From: a virus
Lineage: Duplodnaviria > Heunggongvirae > Uroviricota > Caudoviricetes
Direction: 5' to 3' (one strand)
Length of the DNA stretch: 5,078 nt
Virus record (IMG/VR): IMGVR_UViG_2671180275_000003
Of this stretch, positions 1-4,924 are shown one piece after another. Numbering within the stretch: the first letter of the stretch is position 1; every line of letters starts with the position of its first letter. The notes under the pieces were generated by a model. It searched no databases. It had not been told where the DNA came from and saw only the letters and a program-made list of their open reading frames with translations. The translations under genes were made by a program, and so were the position numbers.

Positions 1-246
1 CATTGCGTACTCAGCCCGTGCGCCAGCGGACTCTTCCCATCCATCCAGTAAGTAAATGGCATCGGCACACATGAGCATCGGAATACAAATGCTTATGTAC
101 TGCTGCTGGCTTAATCCGTCAGGCAACGTGGCAGGGTTCAGCACAACGTGCCCGTCTTCCGCGAGCCTCATCGCCTCTATGAAAAACGCCGTTCTGTTGT
201 GATCTTTGTATCCGGTCATTGGACCGGCGATATAAATCACTGCCAT
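1..246 (-). CDS. DUF4406-like (nucleoside 2-deoxyribosyltransferase-like) phage protein, partial; C-terminus lies beyond the window start
   Basis: Own translation of the - strand from ATG at 246..244 gives MAVIYIAGPMTGYKDHNRTAFFIEAMRLAEDGHVVLNPATLPDGLSQQQYISICIPMLMCADAIYLLDGWEESAGARAEYAM with no stop before position 1. The IAGPMTG and CDAIYLLDGWEESAGA motifs are as recalled for DUF4406. Strong SD (GGGAGGT) 5-6 nt upstream. The ORF track listed only a shorter unrelated + frame here. Confidence 0.6.
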   Translation of the reverse strand, partial: MAVIYIAGPMTGYKDHNRTAFFIEAMRLAEDGHVVLNPATLPDGLSQQQYISICIPMLMCADAIYLLDGWEESAGARAEYAM

Positions 247-455
247 GCTTTACCTCCCGTATTGCGTGTTGCTGTCAGCACGCGTACTTCTTCCATGTTC
301 GTGGCGCAGAAGTGCGAACCGTTGATAAGGCGGATGTGATGCATCTCAGAATTGCGTGAGTCCTGGCGTGTCATGCCCTGGTCAATCAGGCTTTCGTCGA
401 CTTCGTACTGATGGCCGTGGGTTGTGAATCTGATAACGGTTGACTCCTTGATCAT
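237..455 (-). CDS. Hypothetical small phage protein (72 aa)
   Basis: ATG start with SD AAGGAG 8 nt upstream; start overlaps the stop of the upstream gene in an ATGA arrangement (452..455); its 3' end overlaps the DUF4406-like start by 10 nt. No recognisable motif. Confidence 0.5.
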   Translation of the reverse strand: MIKESTVIRFTTHGHQYEVDESLIDQGMTRQDSRNSEMHHIRLINGSHFCATNMEEVRVLTATRNTGGKAWQ

Positions 456-688
456 TGCTTGACTCCTTGCCCGGCAGATTTACCGTGGAGTAGCTTTTTA
501 AGGGCGGCGATTTCTCTTTCCTGATCCTGAATCACCCGGATTGCTTCCATGGTGATCCCCAGTGAGATCGAGGAAGATATAACGACCTTTGGTTTTCCAA
601 CGGCAGCTGCAACTTTGGCTGTTTCCTCGTGAGCACGGGCGATGTGACGTAACCCCCGCAAAAGTGCTTTGTTTCTTTCGCTATTCAT
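452..688 (-). CDS. Hypothetical small phage protein (78 aa), predicted helical/coiled-coil C-terminus
   Basis: ATG start preceded by AGGAG; ATGA stop/start overlap with the next gene downstream; same strand and tight packing as neighbours. No recognisable motif. Confidence 0.55.
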   Translation of the reverse strand: MNSERNKALLRGLRHIARAHEETAKVAAAVGKPKVVISSSISLGITMEAIRVIQDQEREIAALKKLLHGKSAGQGVKQ

Positions 689-723
689 TTCCTGACTCCT
701 GTGTTACTGATTCATCTGTTTAT

Positions 724-1704
724 TCACGTACTGGCAGGGGTAAACATCACGCAGTAAGTTGCATCTCCCGTTACCGGTCCGCAGTCCGGGCAGTAGCCAC
801 CGCCATGGCGACCGCAGGCGTCGCACTGTTTCAGGGTGGCGATAACCTCCGGTGCTGGTTCGCGGGTTCTTGCGCCAACGCTTCGTGGTGCCTGTATGCA
901 GTTCATCCGGTAACCCTGATAAATACGTCTGGTTTCCGGTGTGTCGGAATTGGAGATGGTGATTCTGGTCATGCCGCCCGTTTCCTGCGAAAGGCGGTCA
1001 AGTGCTGCCCTCAGGCGAACGTGCTCGTGTTCATCGAATGGTTTTCCGTAGGCGGTGAAATTGCCCTCGCCACTGAACCGCAGGTAAGGGGGATCGCAGT
1101 ACACGCAAAGCGTGTTGCCCATGCCGAACAGGTGACTGGCAGAGCTCAGCGTATCCTTAAAATCTGCGTGGATAAGCAGCGTTTGGGTGCTGTTTGCCTT
1201 GTCTGCAAATGCGCGGATTTCCCGCTCAGGGAAGTAGGGTTTTCGGTAGCCGCCGAAAGGCACGTTAAAATCACCTTTTCCGTTCACCCGGTACAGGCCA
1301 TTAAAACAGTGCCGGTTGAGGTACAAAAACATGGCGGCCAGTCGCAGTTCACGGCGGTCGCTTATTCCCGTTCTGCTACTCAGGAAGGCATGATTCTCTG
1401 CGTTAAAGGTTTCGCGAATGATGAGATAGTCACCCCTGTTGTTGTGGTTCAGGAACAGGGTTTTCGCCTCGTCGATCAGACTGTCGGTGTTGTCCCGTGC
1501 TGCCCGCCAGAAATTAATCAGCGCACCATTGGAATCACCCAGGATGTAACGCTTGTAACTGGTGTTCATGAATACCGATGCGCCACCCACGAACGGTTCA
1601 ACCAGGCAGTCAGCTTCTGGCAGATGCGCCTTCAGTGTGTTCATGATGCGGCTTTTGCCACCCACCCATTTCAGCGGTGTGCCGGATAACAGTTCTTTGC
1701 TCAT
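724..1704 (-). CDS. dam: Dam-family N6-adenine DNA methyltransferase (probably GATC-specific) with a ~55-aa Cys-rich C-terminal extension
   Basis: 326-aa product with LKWVGGK and CLVEPFVGGASVF (AdoMet-binding region), LFLYLNRHCFNGLYRVN...FNVPFGGYRKPYFPE, catalytic DPPY (VYCDPPY) and NFTAY, all close to E. coli Dam. SD AGAGG 8 nt upstream; ATGA overlap with the upstream ORF. C-terminal tail has CDAC...CPDC plus two further Cys. Confidence 0.9.
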   Translation of the reverse strand: MSKELLSGTPLKWVGGKSRIMNTLKAHLPEADCLVEPFVGGASVFMNTSYKRYILGDSNGALINFWRAARDNTDSLIDEAKTLFLNHNNRGDYLIIRETFNAENHAFLSSRTGISDRRELRLAAMFLYLNRHCFNGLYRVNGKGDFNVPFGGYRKPYFPEREIRAFADKANSTQTLLIHADFKDTLSSASHLFGMGNTLCVYCDPPYLRFSGEGNFTAYGKPFDEHEHVRLRAALDRLSQETGGMTRITISNSDTPETRRIYQGYRMNCIQAPRSVGARTREPAPEVIATLKQCDACGRHGGGYCPDCGPVTGDATYCVMFTPAST

Positions 1705-1928
1705 AACGCGGCCTCTTTGTTATAGGTTTCGTGCGTTAATAAATCCCATGACTTCCCGTTGTTTTTGCTCAGTAATCGCCAGCGAAAACCGATTCTTATT
1801 ACCAGGTAGTCGTGGGGTTTTATACGTGAAAAATTCCGCACGCCGTCGCGGAATAAACGCAGCGATGCGCGGGCTTTTCTTTCCACGTTCAGGGGGAGGC
1901 AGCAACACACATTCAGGATGGCGGCCAT
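1701..1928 (-). CDS. Hypothetical small protein (75 aa)
   Basis: ATG at 1928 with SD GAGGTG 6 nt upstream (the SD overlaps the exonuclease stop); stop overlaps the dam start as ATGA (1701..1704). Low-complexity sequence with no known motif; a competing 62-aa frame (1720..1908) exists, so confidence is moderate. Confidence 0.4.
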   Translation of the reverse strand: MAAILNVCCCLPLNVERKARASLRLFRDGVRNFSRIKPHDYLVIRIGFRWRLLSKNNGKSWDLLTHETYNKEAAL

Positions 1929-1937
1929 GGCTTCACC

Positions 1938-2519
1938 TCATATGTTCAGGAATGGTGTTGTGAAGCGCTGCCAGATTTCTGACACGACCTTTGCCTGGTA
2001 AACGGCGTCGCCCAGCGCGGTGTGAGCAATGGTCTCTTTGCCTGATCGGCCTGGCATTCTCCAGCCGGTTGATTCAGCCATGGCGATAAGCGGACGCATA
2101 CAGCGCTCGTCCCAGTAGCACCAGGGGATGCTTTTTTCTCCGGCTGTGCGTGTTATGGCGGATTTCAGGATTGGGAAATCGAAGGATGCGCCTTTGCACC
2201 ATATGGTCAGTGAATTGCCCGGGCTTTCGTCATGCATATTGCGTGAAATGAACGCCAGAAATTCGGTCACTGCTGCCAGCTCTGTTCCATCTGCGTTGCG
2301 CAGGCAGGCTCTGGCTTCCACGGATTGTCCGGCCCACCATACAGCGGTGGCTGCATTGACGGTTCCGCCGTTGCGTTCTGAATCCACCGGGTCGATGAAT
2401 TTCTCAAACTGCTTGCCCAGCTTTCCGGTGAACGGGTCGAAAAACACCGCCCCGATCGCGAATATGGCTGCGTCCGGTCCGTTACCCAGTGTTTCGGTGT
2501 CAATCATGAGATGGTTCAT
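1938..2519 (-). CDS. DnaQ-like DEDDh 3'-5' exonuclease (the type annotated as exonuclease/exodeoxyribonuclease in enterobacterial prophages)
   Basis: Exo I motif MIDTETLG, central FDFP acidic motif, Exo III motif HTALGDAVYQA (H-x4-D). The track start at 2528 is GTG; I prefer ATG at 2519..2517 (193 aa), which overlaps the upstream stop as TAATG and has AAGGGG about 8 nt upstream. Confidence 0.8.
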   Translation of the reverse strand: MNHLMIDTETLGNGPDAAIFAIGAVFFDPFTGKLGKQFEKFIDPVDSERNGGTVNAATAVWWAGQSVEARACLRNADGTELAAVTEFLAFISRNMHDESPGNSLTIWCKGASFDFPILKSAITRTAGEKSIPWCYWDERCMRPLIAMAESTGWRMPGRSGKETIAHTALGDAVYQAKVVSEIWQRFTTPFLNI

Positions 2520-2749
2520 TATGCGCACCCCTTCAGTTCGTCTGGGTTGGCGAGTATTGCAATCAGTCGTTCAATGGCTGCGCAGGTTTCCTGTGGACAG
2601 GTGTGTGTCTCTTTCGCTGTCTCAGTCAGCTCGCGCAGTAATTCGCAGATATGCGCACGCTCGGCTTTTCTTGCGGCCATGCTGATATGTGCATGATGGT
2701 TAGCTGGTCTGGCGGTTATTTTTCTGCCGGGTGATTCGGCTGTTCTCAT
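2519..2749 (-). CDS. Hypothetical small protein (76 aa from ATG; track version uses a TTG 8 codons upstream)
   Basis: Track ORF 2519..2773 begins at TTG; the in-frame ATG at 2749..2747 has a canonical AGGAG 7 nt upstream, so I place the start there. Four Cys residues, no recognisable domain. Its stop overlaps the exonuclease ATG. Confidence 0.5.
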   Translation of the reverse strand: MRTAESPGRKITARPANHHAHISMAARKAERAHICELLRELTETAKETHTCPQETCAAIERLIAILANPDELKGCA

Positions 2750-2783
2750 TTGTTGACTCCTGAAAAAAGACAAAGGGAACCCG

Positions 2784-2799
2784 AAGGCATGAATGCCTT
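2784..2799. other. Short hairpin (6-bp stem AAGGCA/TGCCTT, 4-nt loop) in the untranslated gap between the mini-ORFs and the 76-aa gene
   Basis: Inverted repeat read directly; not followed by a U-tract on either strand, so not a canonical intrinsic terminator. Confidence 0.25.
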
Positions 2800-2849
2800 A
2801 ATTAATTGCTCGTGTGTTTTCTGGTGTTATTCCGCGCCTGCTTTCGGCT

Positions 2850-2951
2850 TCAGATTATCCCCAGATTCTTCAGTGCTAACCAGATAAGCGCACTCACCTG
2901 AAATATCACCCATGCAGTAGCGATGGTGAGTATTACTTTTACATTCTTCAT
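2850..2951 (-). CDS. Candidate mini-ORF, 33-aa hydrophobic peptide (MKNVKVILTIATAWVIFQVSALIWLALKNLGII)
   Basis: Found by manual translation; below the ORF-track size cutoff. Single predicted transmembrane helix. Starts 12 nt after the stop of the preceding mini-ORF; no clear SD, so weakly supported. Confidence 0.25.
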   Translation of the reverse strand: MKNVKVILTIATAWVIFQVSALIWLALKNLGII

Positions 2952-2963
2952 AAAGTTTTCGCT

Positions 2964-3089
2964 TTATTTACGGCGTTTGTCGCCAGTAAAAAATAATTCG
3001 ATATCCTTCAGTTCGTGGATAATTCGCATAATGCCGATTGCCATAAGCACGGAGATAATCAGAATTACCCATGAAAGAAATATGCTCAT
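2964..3089 (-). CDS. Candidate mini-ORF, 41-aa single-pass membrane peptide (MSIFLSWVILIISVLMAIGIMRIIHELKDIELFFTGDKRRK)
   Basis: Found by manual translation; ATG overlaps the stop of the 80-aa gene as ATGA (3086..3089); SD-like AGGGG 8 nt upstream; hydrophobic core followed by a basic tail, typical of small membrane peptides. Confidence 0.45.
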   Translation of the reverse strand: MSIFLSWVILIISVLMAIGIMRIIHELKDIELFFTGDKRRK

Positions 3090-3328
3090 GCGGCTACCCC
3101 TGTGAAGTAAGGCTCAACAATTTCACCTTCAAACAGTTCTGTCATAATCGACTTTAATTCTTCCAGCGCTTCACGGTCATCGCTGCCCAGTGCGCAGTTG
3201 TATAGCCCCATAATTGCGCCGCGCAGTGAGTTACGAAGGCTTTCATCCTTAGTTACGCCCCGGTTTGCGAGTTCAAAGTGATAACGTTGCAACGCGTTAT
3301 TGATAAGTATTTTGTAGGCTTCGATCAT
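3086..3328 (-). CDS. Hypothetical small protein (80 aa)
   Basis: ATG with SD AAGGA 7 nt upstream; 18-nt gap from the preceding gene; stop coupled to the 41-aa mini-ORF. No recognisable motif. Confidence 0.55.
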   Translation of the reverse strand: MIEAYKILINNALQRYHFELANRGVTKDESLRNSLRGAIMGLYNCALGSDDREALEELKSIMTELFEGEIVEPYFTGVAA

Positions 3329-3953: not shown

Positions 3954-4478
3954 TCACTGGTTGCCTTCGCTGTATTGGTGTTGCTCCAGTTTTGACTTTC
4001 TTCCTGTGTAAACCCGCTTTCCATTGATGGTCTGGCAGTCTTCTTTGTTTGCCGGGGAAAACTTTCTTTTCTGTCGGTCGTATGTCCAGTAGCTTTTCCA
4101 GTTGTGCCATTCTGGCGGCTCGCATTCTGGTAGTTCGTCAGCCAGCTTGTCCCACTCTCTGGCGTTAAACCACCACACGCCATCCGAATTTTCATCTTCA
4201 GGGTTTGAACGGGTCTTGTGTCCAGGCATCTGATTTCGCTGAAGCGCCACGCGCAATGCAGCTTTTGTCAACCCGATATAGGCTGCCCCTTTTTCAAGTG
4301 AGCAAAGTCCGGCTACCGGGCCATCCAGTCGCAAGGTTGCCCCTTTTTTGTAGGTGCGTTTTTTCTTTTCCTCTTGGTGTTCATCGTCGTTTGCCGCGCC
4401 AACGGATTCGGTGATGCTGTCGTTTTCCTGAAGGGCTTGTGTGTCAGATAACTCTTTATCGGCAATTGACTTCCGCAT
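3954..4478 (-). CDS. Cox/Apl-like HTH DNA-binding protein (candidate excisionase/early-promoter regulator), 174 aa as drawn
   Basis: First gene of the operon facing the repressor. Central segment GAAYIGLTKAALRVALQRNQMPG...DGVWWFNAREWDKL has the HTH-then-aromatic-wing pattern of P2 Cox / 186 Apl. ATG at 4478 with SD AGAGGA 6 nt upstream. Acidic ~48-aa N-terminal and ~55-aa C-terminal extensions are atypical; an internal TTG (4334..4332) with AAGGGG upstream is an alternative start. Confidence 0.6.
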   Translation of the reverse strand: MRKSIADKELSDTQALQENDSITESVGAANDDEHQEEKKKRTYKKGATLRLDGPVAGLCSLEKGAAYIGLTKAALRVALQRNQMPGHKTRSNPEDENSDGVWWFNAREWDKLADELPECEPPEWHNWKSYWTYDRQKRKFSPANKEDCQTINGKRVYTGRKSKLEQHQYSEGNQ

Positions 4479-4582: not shown

Positions 4583-4924
4583 ATGGTTATCTTGTCAATA
4601 GACTATGCAAAAAAGCTACGTCAAATACGCAAGGCTGAAGGGCTAACGCAAAAGGAATTTGCGGATATTACGGGGTTGTCTTTAGCTGCCATAAGGAACT
4701 ATGAATCAGGGCAAAAAAGCGCCAGAGCCAAAATTGTTGAGATGGTTCTCCAAGTTGATCGGTTTGAAAAATACATGATGTGGCTAATAAAAGATAAGAC
4801 AATGCCTGCTGCCGGTCAGATAGCCCCGGCTCTCTCTCTTGATGGCTCCATTCAGTCGGAGGGCGATCAGGTTTCAATCGGCATTACCCAAAAATCACCC
4901 CGATCTCGTCGCAATGCTGGCTAA
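4583..4924 (+). CDS. Phage immunity repressor candidate, HTH-XRE family (P2 C-type by size and context), 113 aa
   Basis: N-terminal HTH LTQKEFADITGLSLAAIRNYESGQK; C-terminal KYMMWL...GQIAPAL resembles what I recall of P2 C; sits directly upstream of the integrase on the same strand; AGAGG 12 nt upstream of the ATG. Confidence 0.75.
   Translation: MVILSIDYAKKLRQIRKAEGLTQKEFADITGLSLAAIRNYESGQKSARAKIVEMVLQVDRFEKYMMWLIKDKTMPAAGQIAPALSLDGSIQSEGDQVSIGITQKSPRSRRNAG

What the first reader, a model, noticed from the sequence alone, without database searches (positions are those of the whole stretch)
1..2519. Contiguous exonuclease - Dam - DUF4406-like module suggests a DNA-processing/modification cassette
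A DEDDh 3'-5' exonuclease, an adenine methyltransferase and a nucleoside 2-deoxyribosyltransferase-like (DUF4406) protein are co-oriented and translationally linked, with three small unknowns interleaved. DUF4406 has no established role; sitting next to a methylase raises the possibility that it acts on nucleotides or DNA as part of self-protection or anti-restriction.
Basis: inference. Interest (0 to 1): 0.45.

Follow-up and report, generated by a model that had tools for sequence, protein, structure and literature searches.

The report
Phage exonuclease, Dam methylase, DUF4406 genes
This is the early operon of a P2-type prophage of E. coli, carrying a DNA exonuclease, an orphan adenine methylase and a small uncharacterised enzyme that most likely cuts bases off free nucleotides. 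The three genes turn up together in unrelated phages more often than chance but do not depend on each other.

Summary
On the minus strand lie a DexA/Rv2179c-type DEDDh exonuclease, a D12 (Dam) methyltransferase and the first 82 of 116 codons of a DUF4406 protein, tightly packed with three small genes. One of the three "unknowns" is a ParE-like domain protein. The window is the early operon of a P2-family prophage already annotated in RefSeq.

DUF4406 passes the profile test (E 1e-30). Its model (pLDDT 97) has the nucleoside 2-deoxyribosyltransferase fold, with family-wide Tyr, Ser-x-Gly-x-x-x-Glu and Asn-Pro motifs. I read it as an N-glycosidase or transferase acting on free (deoxy)nucleoside monophosphates, like DNPH1, MilB or phage DmtZ. 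I do not read it as a DNA modifier.

Co-occurrence with methylases is real but limited to certain clades:
- 24 of the 80 closest viral loci, involving four methylase families
- 9 of 80 species-representative genomes
- near background among 80 distant relatives

Scattered cases occur in Aeromonas, Shewanella and Mycobacterium phages. DUF4406 directly followed by the exonuclease recurs in Edwardsiella and Aeromonas, once followed by a different Dam.

Most DUF4406 genes have neither partner, and exonuclease-Dam exists without DUF4406. This is a loose accessory gene set, not an obligate module. An anti-restriction role is untested. Interest is moderate.

The parts
1938..2528 (-). DEDDh 3'-5' exonuclease of the Rv2179c-like / T4 DexA type. 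It is 193 aa from the ATG at 2519, or 196 aa from the GTG at 2528.
   Evidence: Pfam PF16473, E 2.4e-50. phrog_255 'exonuclease'. tblastn reaches T4-type dexA genes at about 27% identity over 88% of the query. RefSeq calls the relative a '3'-5' exonuclease'.
1701..1928 (-). 75-aa protein with a ParE-like toxin domain. Its stop codon overlaps the Dam start (ATGA).
   Evidence: Pfam PF24732, E 3.7e-18. RefSeq annotates the relative as 'ParE family toxin-like protein'. The same cluster (c70) lies upstream of Dam in P2-like loci L001, L003, L004, L006 and L007.
724..1704 (-). Orphan D12-class (Dam-type) N6-adenine DNA methyltransferase, 326 aa, with a C-terminal Cys4 tail (aa 293-321).
   Evidence: Pfam PF02086, E 3.7e-53. 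The best PADLOC model is 'orphan methyltransferase', E 1e-75. No endonuclease gene is annotated nearby in L001. The tail is 39% identical over 80 aa (E 1e-10) to a segment of an Exonuc_VIII + Rv2179c fusion protein.
452..688 (-). 78-aa basic protein of unknown function.
   Evidence: No Pfam hit. phrog_23826, unknown function. pI 10.4.
237..455 (-). 72-aa protein of unknown function. It overlaps the 78-aa gene (ATGA) and the DUF4406 start.
   Evidence: No Pfam hit. phrog_3459, unknown function.
1..246 (-). The first 82 codons of a 116-aa DUF4406 protein with the nucleoside 2-deoxyribosyltransferase fold. The gene runs off the left end of the window.
2519..2773 (-). 76-84-aa gene of unknown function just upstream of the exonuclease, in the same operon. 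Its stop overlaps the exonuclease ATG.
   Evidence: phrog_22206 aligns to residues 9-84. The RefSeq relative is 76 aa. A shared translation-initiation motif at 2746-2762 points to the ATG at 2749 as the start.

Best explanation
The window is the leftward early operon of a P2-family prophage of E. coli. The order is integrase, repressor, cox-like gene, small genes, then the genes of this finding, then (beyond the window) replication gene A.

Inside the operon sit three accessory enzymes that are separately mobile.
1. A DexA/Rv2179c-type DEDDh exonuclease, which trims nucleic acid from 3' ends into mononucleotides.
2. An orphan Dam-type methyltransferase, which puts N6-methyl groups on adenines of phage DNA.
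3. DUF4406, a minimal enzyme of about 95-116 aa with the nucleoside 2-deoxyribosyltransferase fold.

My inference is that DUF4406 uses its invariant Glu79 as the nucleophile, helped by Tyr5 and, in this protein, Asp68. It would break the N-glycosidic bond of a free (deoxy)nucleoside 5'-monophosphate, or transfer the base. The invariant Ser73, in the place where deoxyribosyltransferases carry the Asp that reads a 5'-OH, suggests a phosphorylated substrate. The substrate is probably a purine or adenine nucleotide, supplied by exonucleases or dNTP pyrophosphatases at the time of phage replication.

The three genes share a theme of adenine and nucleotide handling and are recurrently neighbours. 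They are not an obligate complex, and DUF4406 does not modify DNA.

Shown here: the gene identities, the operon packing, the fold, the conserved residues and the co-occurrence numbers. Inferred: the catalytic activity, the substrate class and any functional coupling.
For: Identity and setting:
- Pfam hits for the window proteins.
- RefSeq annotation of a 96.6%-identical E. coli prophage with P2-family capsid genes and a replication endonuclease.

Fold and active site:
- The model has pLDDT 96.9.
- A family profile aligns to the T. brucei deoxyribosyltransferase (E 0.0014). YIAGP lies on YIAGP, and S73-x-G-x-x-x-E79 lies on D-C-G-T-A-F-E.
- Across 147 cluster representatives and 80 distant viral copies, E79 is 140/147 and 80/80, S73 is 144/147 and 80/80, and Y5 is Y or F in 140/147 and Y in 78/80. 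N37-P38 and W70 are also kept.
- Some members cross-hit the Pfam families Nuc_deoxyrib_tr, DUF1937 and DUF7768.

Nucleotide context:
- DUF4406 is followed by a dUTPase whose start overlaps its stop in Vibrio phage 1.017.O.
- It is preceded by a PF04447 dATP/dGTP pyrophosphohydrolase whose stop overlaps its start in Pseudomonas phage phi297.
- MazG lies three genes downstream of it in Gordonia phage BigShaq, and a dCMP deaminase and a MazG are annotated under the match in Mycobacterium phage Nebkiss.
- PHROG cross-hits include a MazG-like family.
- DmtZ, a characterised phage enzyme with a deoxyribosyltransferase-like fold, hydrolyses dAMP and works together with dATPases (PMC12884076).

Against DNA binding: median pI 5.5, with 65% of domains below 6.

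Loose linkage: co-occurrence figures; exonuclease-Dam without DUF4406.
Against: - No member of PF14359 has been assayed. The literature search found only three passing mentions.
- The third catalytic-triad residue (Asp) is not conserved in the family. An acidic residue sits at position 68 or 69 in 56 of 147 representatives, so the chemistry may differ from classical deoxyribosyltransferases.
- Taking Ser73 to indicate a 5'-phosphate rests on recalled literature on Rcl and on engineered phosphodeoxyribosyltransferases. It was not tested here.
- The recurrent adjacency to N6-adenine methylases is not explained by a plain nucleotide-pool role.
- Fusion proteins gave no informative partner domain.
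Confidence: 0.5

Rival explanations
1. Positional coincidence. The exonuclease, Dam and DUF4406 are unrelated accessory genes that pile up in the same permissive slot of temperate-phage early regions, between the regulatory or replication genes and the late genes. Adjacency would reflect shared location and shared ancestry, not function.
For: - In most loci DUF4406 directly follows lambdoid replication genes with no methylase nearby: RepO plus DnaB, or Phg_2220_C plus an IstB-like ATPase, DUF1627 and DUF977.
- Methylase-linked copies fall in 5 of 12 sequence clusters, so independent events are few.
- Distant relatives show 7 methylase-domain proteins among 292 neighbours, against none seen in the top 25 families of 149 control proteins, p = 0.054.
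- In the species-representative set, 19 of 80 loci have a methylase somewhere within 4 kb. The regional base rate is therefore already high.
- Gene order is not conserved: the methylase lies upstream in the viral set and mostly downstream in the genome set.
Against: - Adjacency recurs with four or five unrelated methylase families and in unrelated phage backbones: P2-like, lambdoid, Aeromonas, Shewanella 1/41 and Mycobacterium Brujita.
- The rarer DUF4406-exonuclease pair, with overlapping stop and start codons, recurs in Edwardsiella (twice) and Aeromonas. The exonuclease family occurs in only about 3% of phage records.
- Within 4 kb, methylases are closer to DUF4406 than a uniform spread predicts, p = 0.03.
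Confidence: 0.25
2. Counter-defence. Phage Dam/Dcm methylases and exonucleases are known triggers of retrons, whose effectors have a deoxyribosyltransferase-like fold and deplete adenine nucleotides. DUF4406 would be carried next to such triggers to neutralise that kind of effector. It could re-make adenine nucleotides by base transfer, or it could poison effector oligomers.
For: - Literature: a phage Dcm triggers retron Ec86, whose deoxyribosyltransferase-like effector depletes adenine derivatives (10.1101/2023.08.16.553469; PMC11482910).
- Literature: Dam and RecE trigger retron-Sen2 (10.1101/2020.06.22.160242).
- The window holds exactly these three kinds of protein.
- DmtZ shows that a phage enzyme of this fold can transfer deoxyribose 5-phosphate to a base.
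Against: - There is no direct evidence.
- It has no PADLOC match.
- Most DUF4406 genes occur without a methylase or exonuclease.
- The strict conservation of catalytic-type residues argues against a pure decoy.
Confidence: 0.08
3. DNA-level action. DUF4406 would remove or exchange bases in DNA, as a glycosylase or transglycosylase, together with the methylase. The result would be a modified phage genome that escapes restriction.
For: - Deoxyribosyltransferase-type chemistry is base exchange through a covalent sugar-enzyme intermediate (PMC12884076).
- DUF4406 recurs next to DNA methylases.
- In Shewanella phage 1/41 the order is DUF4406, MT-A70 methylase, restriction endonuclease.
Against: - The domain is about 95 aa with no added DNA-binding module and is mostly acidic, with median pI 5.5.
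- All characterised relatives found by fold search act on free nucleosides, nucleotides or NAD.
- Its neighbours elsewhere are dNTP pyrophosphatases.
- 70% of close relatives have no methylase.
Confidence: 0.06
4. Sanitising of methylated nucleotides. DUF4406 would specifically hydrolyse N6-methyl-dAMP, or another methylated dNMP, released when methylated DNA is degraded by the exonuclease. This would keep it out of the dNTP pool, in analogy to what I recall of DNPH1 acting on hydroxymethyl-dUMP. This is a special case of the best explanation that would account for the link to adenine methylases.
For: - Nearly all methylases found next to DUF4406 are N6-adenine enzymes or contain such a domain: D12, PF05869, MT-A70, N6_N4, and C5 fused to PF05869.
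- The exonuclease-DUF4406 pairs are consistent with a supply of dNMPs.
- Fold and motif resemble dNMP hydrolases.
Against: - This is pure inference; no substrate data exist.
- A stand-alone C5 methylase is the neighbour in L237.
- Most DUF4406 genes lack any methylase neighbour.
- No harm from N6-methyl-dATP in bacteria was found or looked up here.
Confidence: 0.1

Closest known systems
DmtZ, the deoxyribosyltransferase-like enzyme of Z-genome actinophages (Gordonia phage Ghobes, Arthrobacter phage Wayne; PMC12884076)
   Same: A small phage-encoded protein with the same fold, with a Tyr and a Glu nucleophile. It acts on a dNMP (dAMP to adenine plus deoxyribose 5-phosphate, and transfer to another base). 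It is genetically and functionally paired with dNTP pyrophosphatases, as DUF4406 is in phi297 and Vibrio phage 1.017.O.
   Different: DmtZ is about 145 aa with the triad Tyr6-Asn77-Glu103. According to its authors it matches no Pfam model, so it is not PF14359. It serves 2-aminoadenine genome synthesis, for which this prophage has no genes. A direct sequence comparison was not possible because no accession was available.
DNPH1/Rcl and MilB/BlsM (nucleoside 5'-monophosphate N-glycosidases)
   Different: There is no detectable sequence match. DUF4406 is about 50 residues shorter. The triad Asp is not conserved across the family. Activity is untested.
Nucleoside 2'-deoxyribosyltransferases (PF05014; e.g. 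T. brucei 2a0k, L. leichmannii 1f8x)
   Different: They carry Asp where DUF4406 has the invariant Ser73, and they use nucleosides rather than nucleotides. They are cellular salvage enzymes.
Phage T4 DexA (exonuclease A) and Rv2179c-type DEDDh exonucleases
   Same: The window's exonuclease belongs to PF16473 and matches T4-type dexA genes at about 27% identity over most of its length.
   Different: It sits in a temperate P2-type early operon rather than in a lytic phage. The substrate (DNA or RNA) is untested. The close subfamily is small: 27 clusters found.
Orphan Dam methyltransferases of temperate phages
   Same: A D12-class enzyme with the DPPY motif and no partner endonuclease. The exonuclease-Dam pair is also present in Klebsiella phage 3LV2017 of the Peduoviridae.
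   Different: It has an extra C-terminal Cys4 tail, shared with an Exonuc_VIII + Rv2179c fusion protein. Its target sequence was not determined.

Membership tests
DUF4406 (Pfam PF14359) | Profile score above the curated gathering threshold | tested here: met
   106.5 bits against a cut-off of 22, E 9.8e-31, for the 82 residues in the window. All close homologues carry PF14359.
DUF4406 (Pfam PF14359) | Family motifs: Y-I-A-G, N-P-A, W-x-x-S-x-G-A-x-x-E | tested here: met
   The window translation has VIYIAGPMTG, LNPA and GWEESAGARAE. Column conservation is given.
Nucleoside 2-deoxyribosyltransferase superfamily | Flavodoxin-like deoxyribosyltransferase fold | tested here: met
Nucleoside 2-deoxyribosyltransferase superfamily | Catalytic Glu nucleophile at the start of the helix after the last core strand | tested here: met
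   E79 aligns with the Glu of D-C-G-T-A-F-E in 2a0k. It is kept in 140/147 representatives and 80/80 distant viral copies.
Nucleoside 2-deoxyribosyltransferase superfamily | Tyr on strand 1 and Asp after the preceding strand (the rest of the catalytic triad) | tested here: inconclusive
   The Tyr is kept (Y or F in 140/147). An acidic residue at position 68 or 69 is present in the window protein (D68) but in only 56/147 representatives. The alignment has a gap at this point.
Nucleoside 2-deoxyribosyltransferase superfamily | N-glycosidic bond cleavage or base transfer | not testable with these tools
   This needs an enzyme assay.
NMP/dNMP N-glycosidases (DNPH1, MilB type) | An uncharged small residue (Ser) instead of the Asp that binds the 5'-OH, giving 5'-phosphate specificity | tested here: met
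   S73 aligns with the Asp of D-C-G-T-A-F-E in 2a0k and is invariant. That this residue decides phosphate specificity comes from the literature (PMC12884076, section 22, and recalled work on Rcl). It was not tested here.
D12-class (Dam) N6-adenine DNA methyltransferase | PF02086 profile, FxGxG SAM-binding motif and DPPY catalytic motif | tested here: met
   E 3.7e-53. FVGGAS and CDPPYL are seen in the translation.
D12-class (Dam) N6-adenine DNA methyltransferase | GATC specificity | not testable with these tools
   GATC is neither depleted nor enriched in the window: 18 observed against 19.3 expected.
Restriction-modification system | A cognate endonuclease gene next to the methylase | tested here: not met
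   None is present in the window or in the 26.8-kb annotated relative. The best PADLOC model is 'orphan methyltransferase'.
DEDDh exonuclease (PF16473, DexA-like) | Profile match and the DxE ... D ... H-x4-D motifs | tested here: met
   E 2.4e-50 over the full profile. DTET and HTALGD are in the translation.
ParE/RelE toxin-antitoxin pair | A toxin-domain gene with an adjacent cognate antitoxin gene | tested here: inconclusive
   The toxin-like domain is met (PF24732, E 3.7e-18). Neither neighbour (the exonuclease upstream, Dam downstream) is an antitoxin family.
Obligate exonuclease-Dam-DUF4406 module | The three genes are co-inherited | tested here: not met
   DUF4406 lacks a methylase in 55 of 80 close viral loci and in 61 of 80 genome loci within 4 kb. 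Exonuclease-Dam occurs without DUF4406 in phage 3LV2017.

The most novel reading that the evidence does not exclude
The trio is the phage side of a retron-type conflict. The Dam and the exonuclease are activities that trip host retrons and similar sensors whose effectors have a deoxyribosyltransferase-like or TIR-like fold and destroy adenine nucleotides. DUF4406, of the same fold, would be the phage's antidote. It could rebuild adenine nucleotides by base transfer, or it could poison effector assembly.
Probability: 0.07. Interest if true: 0.8.

Novelty: new member of a known kind. Interest (0 to 1): 0.38.

Why it matters
DUF4406 is a large family with no assigned function. About 8,500 clusters at 50% identity matched, and it is present in 442 sequenced phage records. 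It sits in the early regions of temperate phages of many phyla.

This analysis yields a concrete, cheap experiment: a dNMP or N6-methyl-dAMP glycosidase assay with an E79A control. It also provides a set of natural gene pairings to guide the choice of substrate, namely N6-adenine methylases, a DexA-like exonuclease and dNTP pyrophosphatases.

If the enzyme turns out to handle methylated or adenine nucleotides, it would join DmtZ and DNPH1 as a nucleotide-pool editor used by phages. If it counters defences that deplete nucleotides, it would be a new class of anti-defence protein.

The window itself is an ordinary, already annotated P2-type prophage segment.

Tried and rejected
1. Sequence search of solved structures with the single protein found only a chance hit. 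Only the family profile reached a deoxyribosyltransferase.

2. Domain fusions as a clue to function. 54 long DUF4406 proteins gave no informative partner in Pfam. One, P0211, has an N-terminal DxDxT-like region with no Pfam match.

3. Homologues of the exonuclease were searched for Dam fusions. Only 27 clusters were found, none of them fused.

A four-sequence alignment worked.

5. My first greedy gene caller lost DUF4406 in 17 loci and chose opposite-strand ORFs over real methylase genes. I corrected this by forcing the DUF4406 ORF and by scanning all ORFs.

6. The [DNS]PP[YFWH] motif screen misses most C5 methylases, as a comparison shows. Pfam scans were therefore used for the distant set.

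7. I recalled that the Fels-2 prophage Dam was the retron-Sen2 trigger. The paper does not say this, so I dropped the claim.

8. A direct comparison with DmtZ was not possible because the paper text gives no accession.

9. Rfam and promoter/terminator scans found nothing relevant. PADLOC has no model for DUF4406.

Full report
WHAT IS IN THE WINDOW

All genes of the finding lie on the minus strand. Reading in the direction of transcription:
- a cox-like gene (3954-4478)
- four small genes
- a 76-84-aa gene (2519-2773)
- the exonuclease (1938-2528, probably starting at the ATG at 2519)
- a 75-aa gene (1701-1928)
- the methyltransferase (724-1704)
- a 78-aa gene (452-688)
- a 72-aa gene (237-455)
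- DUF4406 (246 to beyond position 1)

On the plus strand are an HTH repressor (4583-4924) and the start of an integrase at about 4995.

Pfam confirms the three named assignments: PF16473 at E 2.4e-50, PF02086 at E 3.7e-53 and PF14359 at E 9.8e-31. It also shows that the 75-aa 'unknown' is a ParE-like toxin-domain protein (PF24732, E 3.7e-18).

The junctions are overlaps of 1, 4, 4 and 10 nt, a 9-nt spacer, and one 35-nt spacer with a Shine-Dalgarno sequence. Promoter- and terminator-like sites do not exceed chance.

WHERE IT COMES FROM

The first 2.8 kb matches 31 of 5,426 complete E. coli genomes at 80-99% identity, always on the chromosome. RefSeq already annotates '3'-5' exonuclease', 'ParE family toxin-like protein', 'DNA adenine methylase' and 'DUF4406 domain-containing protein' there.

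The best relative (96.6% identity) is a prophage beside dmsA with P2-family capsid, scaffold, portal and terminase genes. Its replication endonuclease gene A lies about 2 kb past DUF4406. Among sequenced phages, only the cox-repressor-integrase end has close DNA matches. The segment is thus the variable accessory part of a P2-family early operon.

WHAT DUF4406 IS

The full-length relative is 116 aa. The family is large: 8,497 clusters at 50% identity with E up to 1e-3, and 442 sequenced phage records from Vibrio, Gordonia, Arthrobacter, Mycobacterium, Pseudomonas and others. The literature search found only three passing mentions and no functional study.

Structure and fold:
- An AlphaFold model built on 70 diverse sequences is very confident (pLDDT 96.9).
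- A family profile reaches the T. brucei deoxyribosyltransferase by sequence (E 0.0014). The alignment puts YIAGP on YIAGP and S73-x-G-A-x-x-E79 on D-C-G-T-A-F-E, the motif I recall as carrying that family's Glu nucleophile.

Conservation across 147 cluster representatives and 80 distant viral copies:
- Glu79 and Ser73 are essentially invariant, as are Asn37-Pro38.
- Tyr5 is Tyr or Phe, and Trp70 is kept.
- The Asp that completes the classical triad is present in the window's protein (D68) but variable in the family.

A Ser where deoxyribosyltransferases have the 5'-OH-binding Asp is the pattern of the monophosphate-specific hydrolases. This rests on the literature (see PMC12884076) and was not tested here. 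The domain is mostly acidic (median pI 5.5) and has no extra DNA-binding module.

DOES DUF4406 TRAVEL WITH METHYLASES AND THE EXONUCLEASE?

Set A, the 80 closest viral loci:
- A methyltransferase lies within 2 kb upstream on the same strand in 24 loci, by homology search and by a catalytic-motif screen. Only 4 lie downstream and 4 farther away. That bin holds 24 of the 32 motif-bearing ORFs against a 31% share of ORFs, p = 4e-7.
- The methylases belong to four Pfam families: D12 in P2-like phages; PF05869 Dam, a C5 + PF05869 fusion and MT-A70 in a lambdoid group.
- These loci are not independent. They fall in 5 of 12 DUF4406 clusters at 70% identity, and the other 7 clusters (55 loci) have none. 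In those 55 loci DUF4406 simply follows the lambdoid replication genes.
- Within one cluster of DUF4406 proteins at least 70% identical, the methylase family changes while DUF4406 stays.

Set B, 80 distant, mostly metagenomic relatives:
- 7 of 292 proteins within two genes carry a methylase domain.
- None appears among the top 25 families of 149 control proteins five or six genes away, p = 0.054.

Set C, 80 loci from one genome per species:
- 9 loci have a methylase within about 1 kb on the same strand, and 19 have one within 4 kb. This is closer than a uniform spread predicts, p = 0.03.

Individual annotated cases:
- Aeromonas phage 4_4512: Dam followed by DUF4406, overlapping.
- Shewanella phage 1/41: DUF4406, then an MT-A70 methylase, then a restriction endonuclease.
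- Mycobacterium phage Brujita: N6_N4 methylase gp55, then DUF4406 gp56, then gp57, annotated as a methylase.
- The Shewanella and Brujita cases were picked because the hit table already showed a methylase, so they are examples, not a sample.

The exonuclease:
- It is rarer, present in about 3% of phage records, and the pairing recurs.
- DUF4406 is followed by a PF16473 exonuclease whose start overlaps its stop in two Edwardsiella anguillarum prophages and in Aeromonas rivipollensis. In the Aeromonas locus a 766-aa PF05869 Dam protein comes next. The trio thus exists in another order with another Dam family.
- Conversely, Klebsiella phage 3LV2017 (Peduoviridae) has exonuclease then Dam and no DUF4406.

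OTHER NEIGHBOURS POINT TO THE NUCLEOTIDE POOL

- DUF4406 is followed by a dUTPase whose start overlaps its stop in Vibrio phage 1.017.O.
- It is preceded by a PF04447 dATP/dGTP pyrophosphohydrolase whose stop overlaps its start in Pseudomonas phage phi297.
- It sits among helicase, clamp, DnaQ-like, RusA and MazG genes in actinophages.
- A 2026 study characterised DmtZ, a phage enzyme of this fold that hydrolyses dAMP, transfers deoxyribose 5-phosphate to another base, and works downstream of phage dATPases including DUF550-type enzymes (PMC12884076). DmtZ is the closest characterised analogue. It is not a member of PF14359.

MOST LIKELY MECHANISM

DUF4406 is a minimal enzyme of this fold that cleaves, or transfers the base of, a free (deoxy)nucleoside 5'-monophosphate. 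Glu79 would act as the nucleophile. The substrate would be supplied by exonucleases or dNTP pyrophosphatases during phage replication.

Almost all neighbouring methylases are N6-adenine enzymes, and the partner pyrophosphatase in phi297 is a dATP/dGTP enzyme. This hints at adenine-type substrates, possibly methylated ones.

The exonuclease and the orphan Dam do what their families do. The three form a loose accessory set, not a complex.

Rivals, with my confidence in each:
- pure positional coincidence, 0.25
- a counter-defence role against nucleotide-depleting effectors such as those of retrons, which are triggered by phage methylases and exonucleases, 0.08

Nothing found here supports an anti-restriction role.

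VERDICT

The segment is an already annotated member of known gene families. The modest novelty is the recurrent, clade-limited pairing of an uncharacterised enzyme family of this fold with N6-adenine methylases, a DexA-like exonuclease and dNTP pyrophosphatases. That pairing turns DUF4406 into a directly testable target.

Noticed in passing
window 1701-1928 (-): A 75-aa ParE-like toxin-domain protein (PF24732) sits between the exonuclease and Dam, with its stop overlapping the Dam start. No antitoxin-like neighbour is evident. The same small gene precedes Dam in other P2-like loci (L001, L003, L004, L006, L007).
   Followed up: partly
window 724-850 (-), Dam residues about 293-321; L169:1120-3558: The Dam ends in a Cys4 motif, CDACGRHGGGYCPDCGPVTGDATY. 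The motif recurs (39% identity over 80 aa, E 1e-10) between the Exonuc_VIII and Rv2179c-like exonuclease domains of an 813-aa lambdoid phage protein. A short zinc-ribbon-like element is therefore shared by a methylase and an exonuclease of the same kind as the one encoded next door.
   Followed up: partly
window 452-468, 685-701, 2746-2762: Three near-identical 17-nt stretches (reverse complement CAGGAGTCAnnAAATGA) form the ribosome-binding site and start codon of the 72-, 78- and 76-aa genes. The third one implies that the upstream small gene starts at the ATG at 2749 rather than the TTG at 2773.
   Followed up: partly
window about 2700-3150: GC content drops to 0.40-0.43. The region holds two very hydrophobic mini-ORFs on the minus strand (2850-2951, 33 aa; 2964-3089, 41 aa). 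They are possibly small membrane peptides brought in with foreign DNA.
   Followed up: no
protein P0035 (E. coli, 117 aa): A natural chimera has the first ~45 residues of this Dam joined in frame to the C-terminal 70 residues of DUF4406. This is a deletion that removed everything between the two genes in some E. coli prophage.
   Followed up: no
loci L009-L038, L050 (DUF4406 clusters 8-9): In one group of lambdoid phages with near-identical DUF4406 genes, the slot one or two genes upstream holds a PF05869 Dam, a 636-aa C5 + PF05869 fusion or an MT-A70 methylase in different phages. This looks like a methylase exchange hotspot.
   Followed up: partly
proteins P0223 and P0211: P0223 is an 1817-aa protein with 12 DUF4406-like stretches. 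P0211 carries an N-terminal region of about 120 aa with a VDFDDT motif, reminiscent of HAD phosphatases, fused to DUF4406. The region has no Pfam match.
   Followed up: no
window 3954-4478 (-): The first gene of the early operon is 174 aa. It has only a sub-threshold Phage_Cox match (25.3 bits against a cut-off of 27.5) in residues 58-129, so it is a long, divergent Cox-like protein.
   Followed up: no
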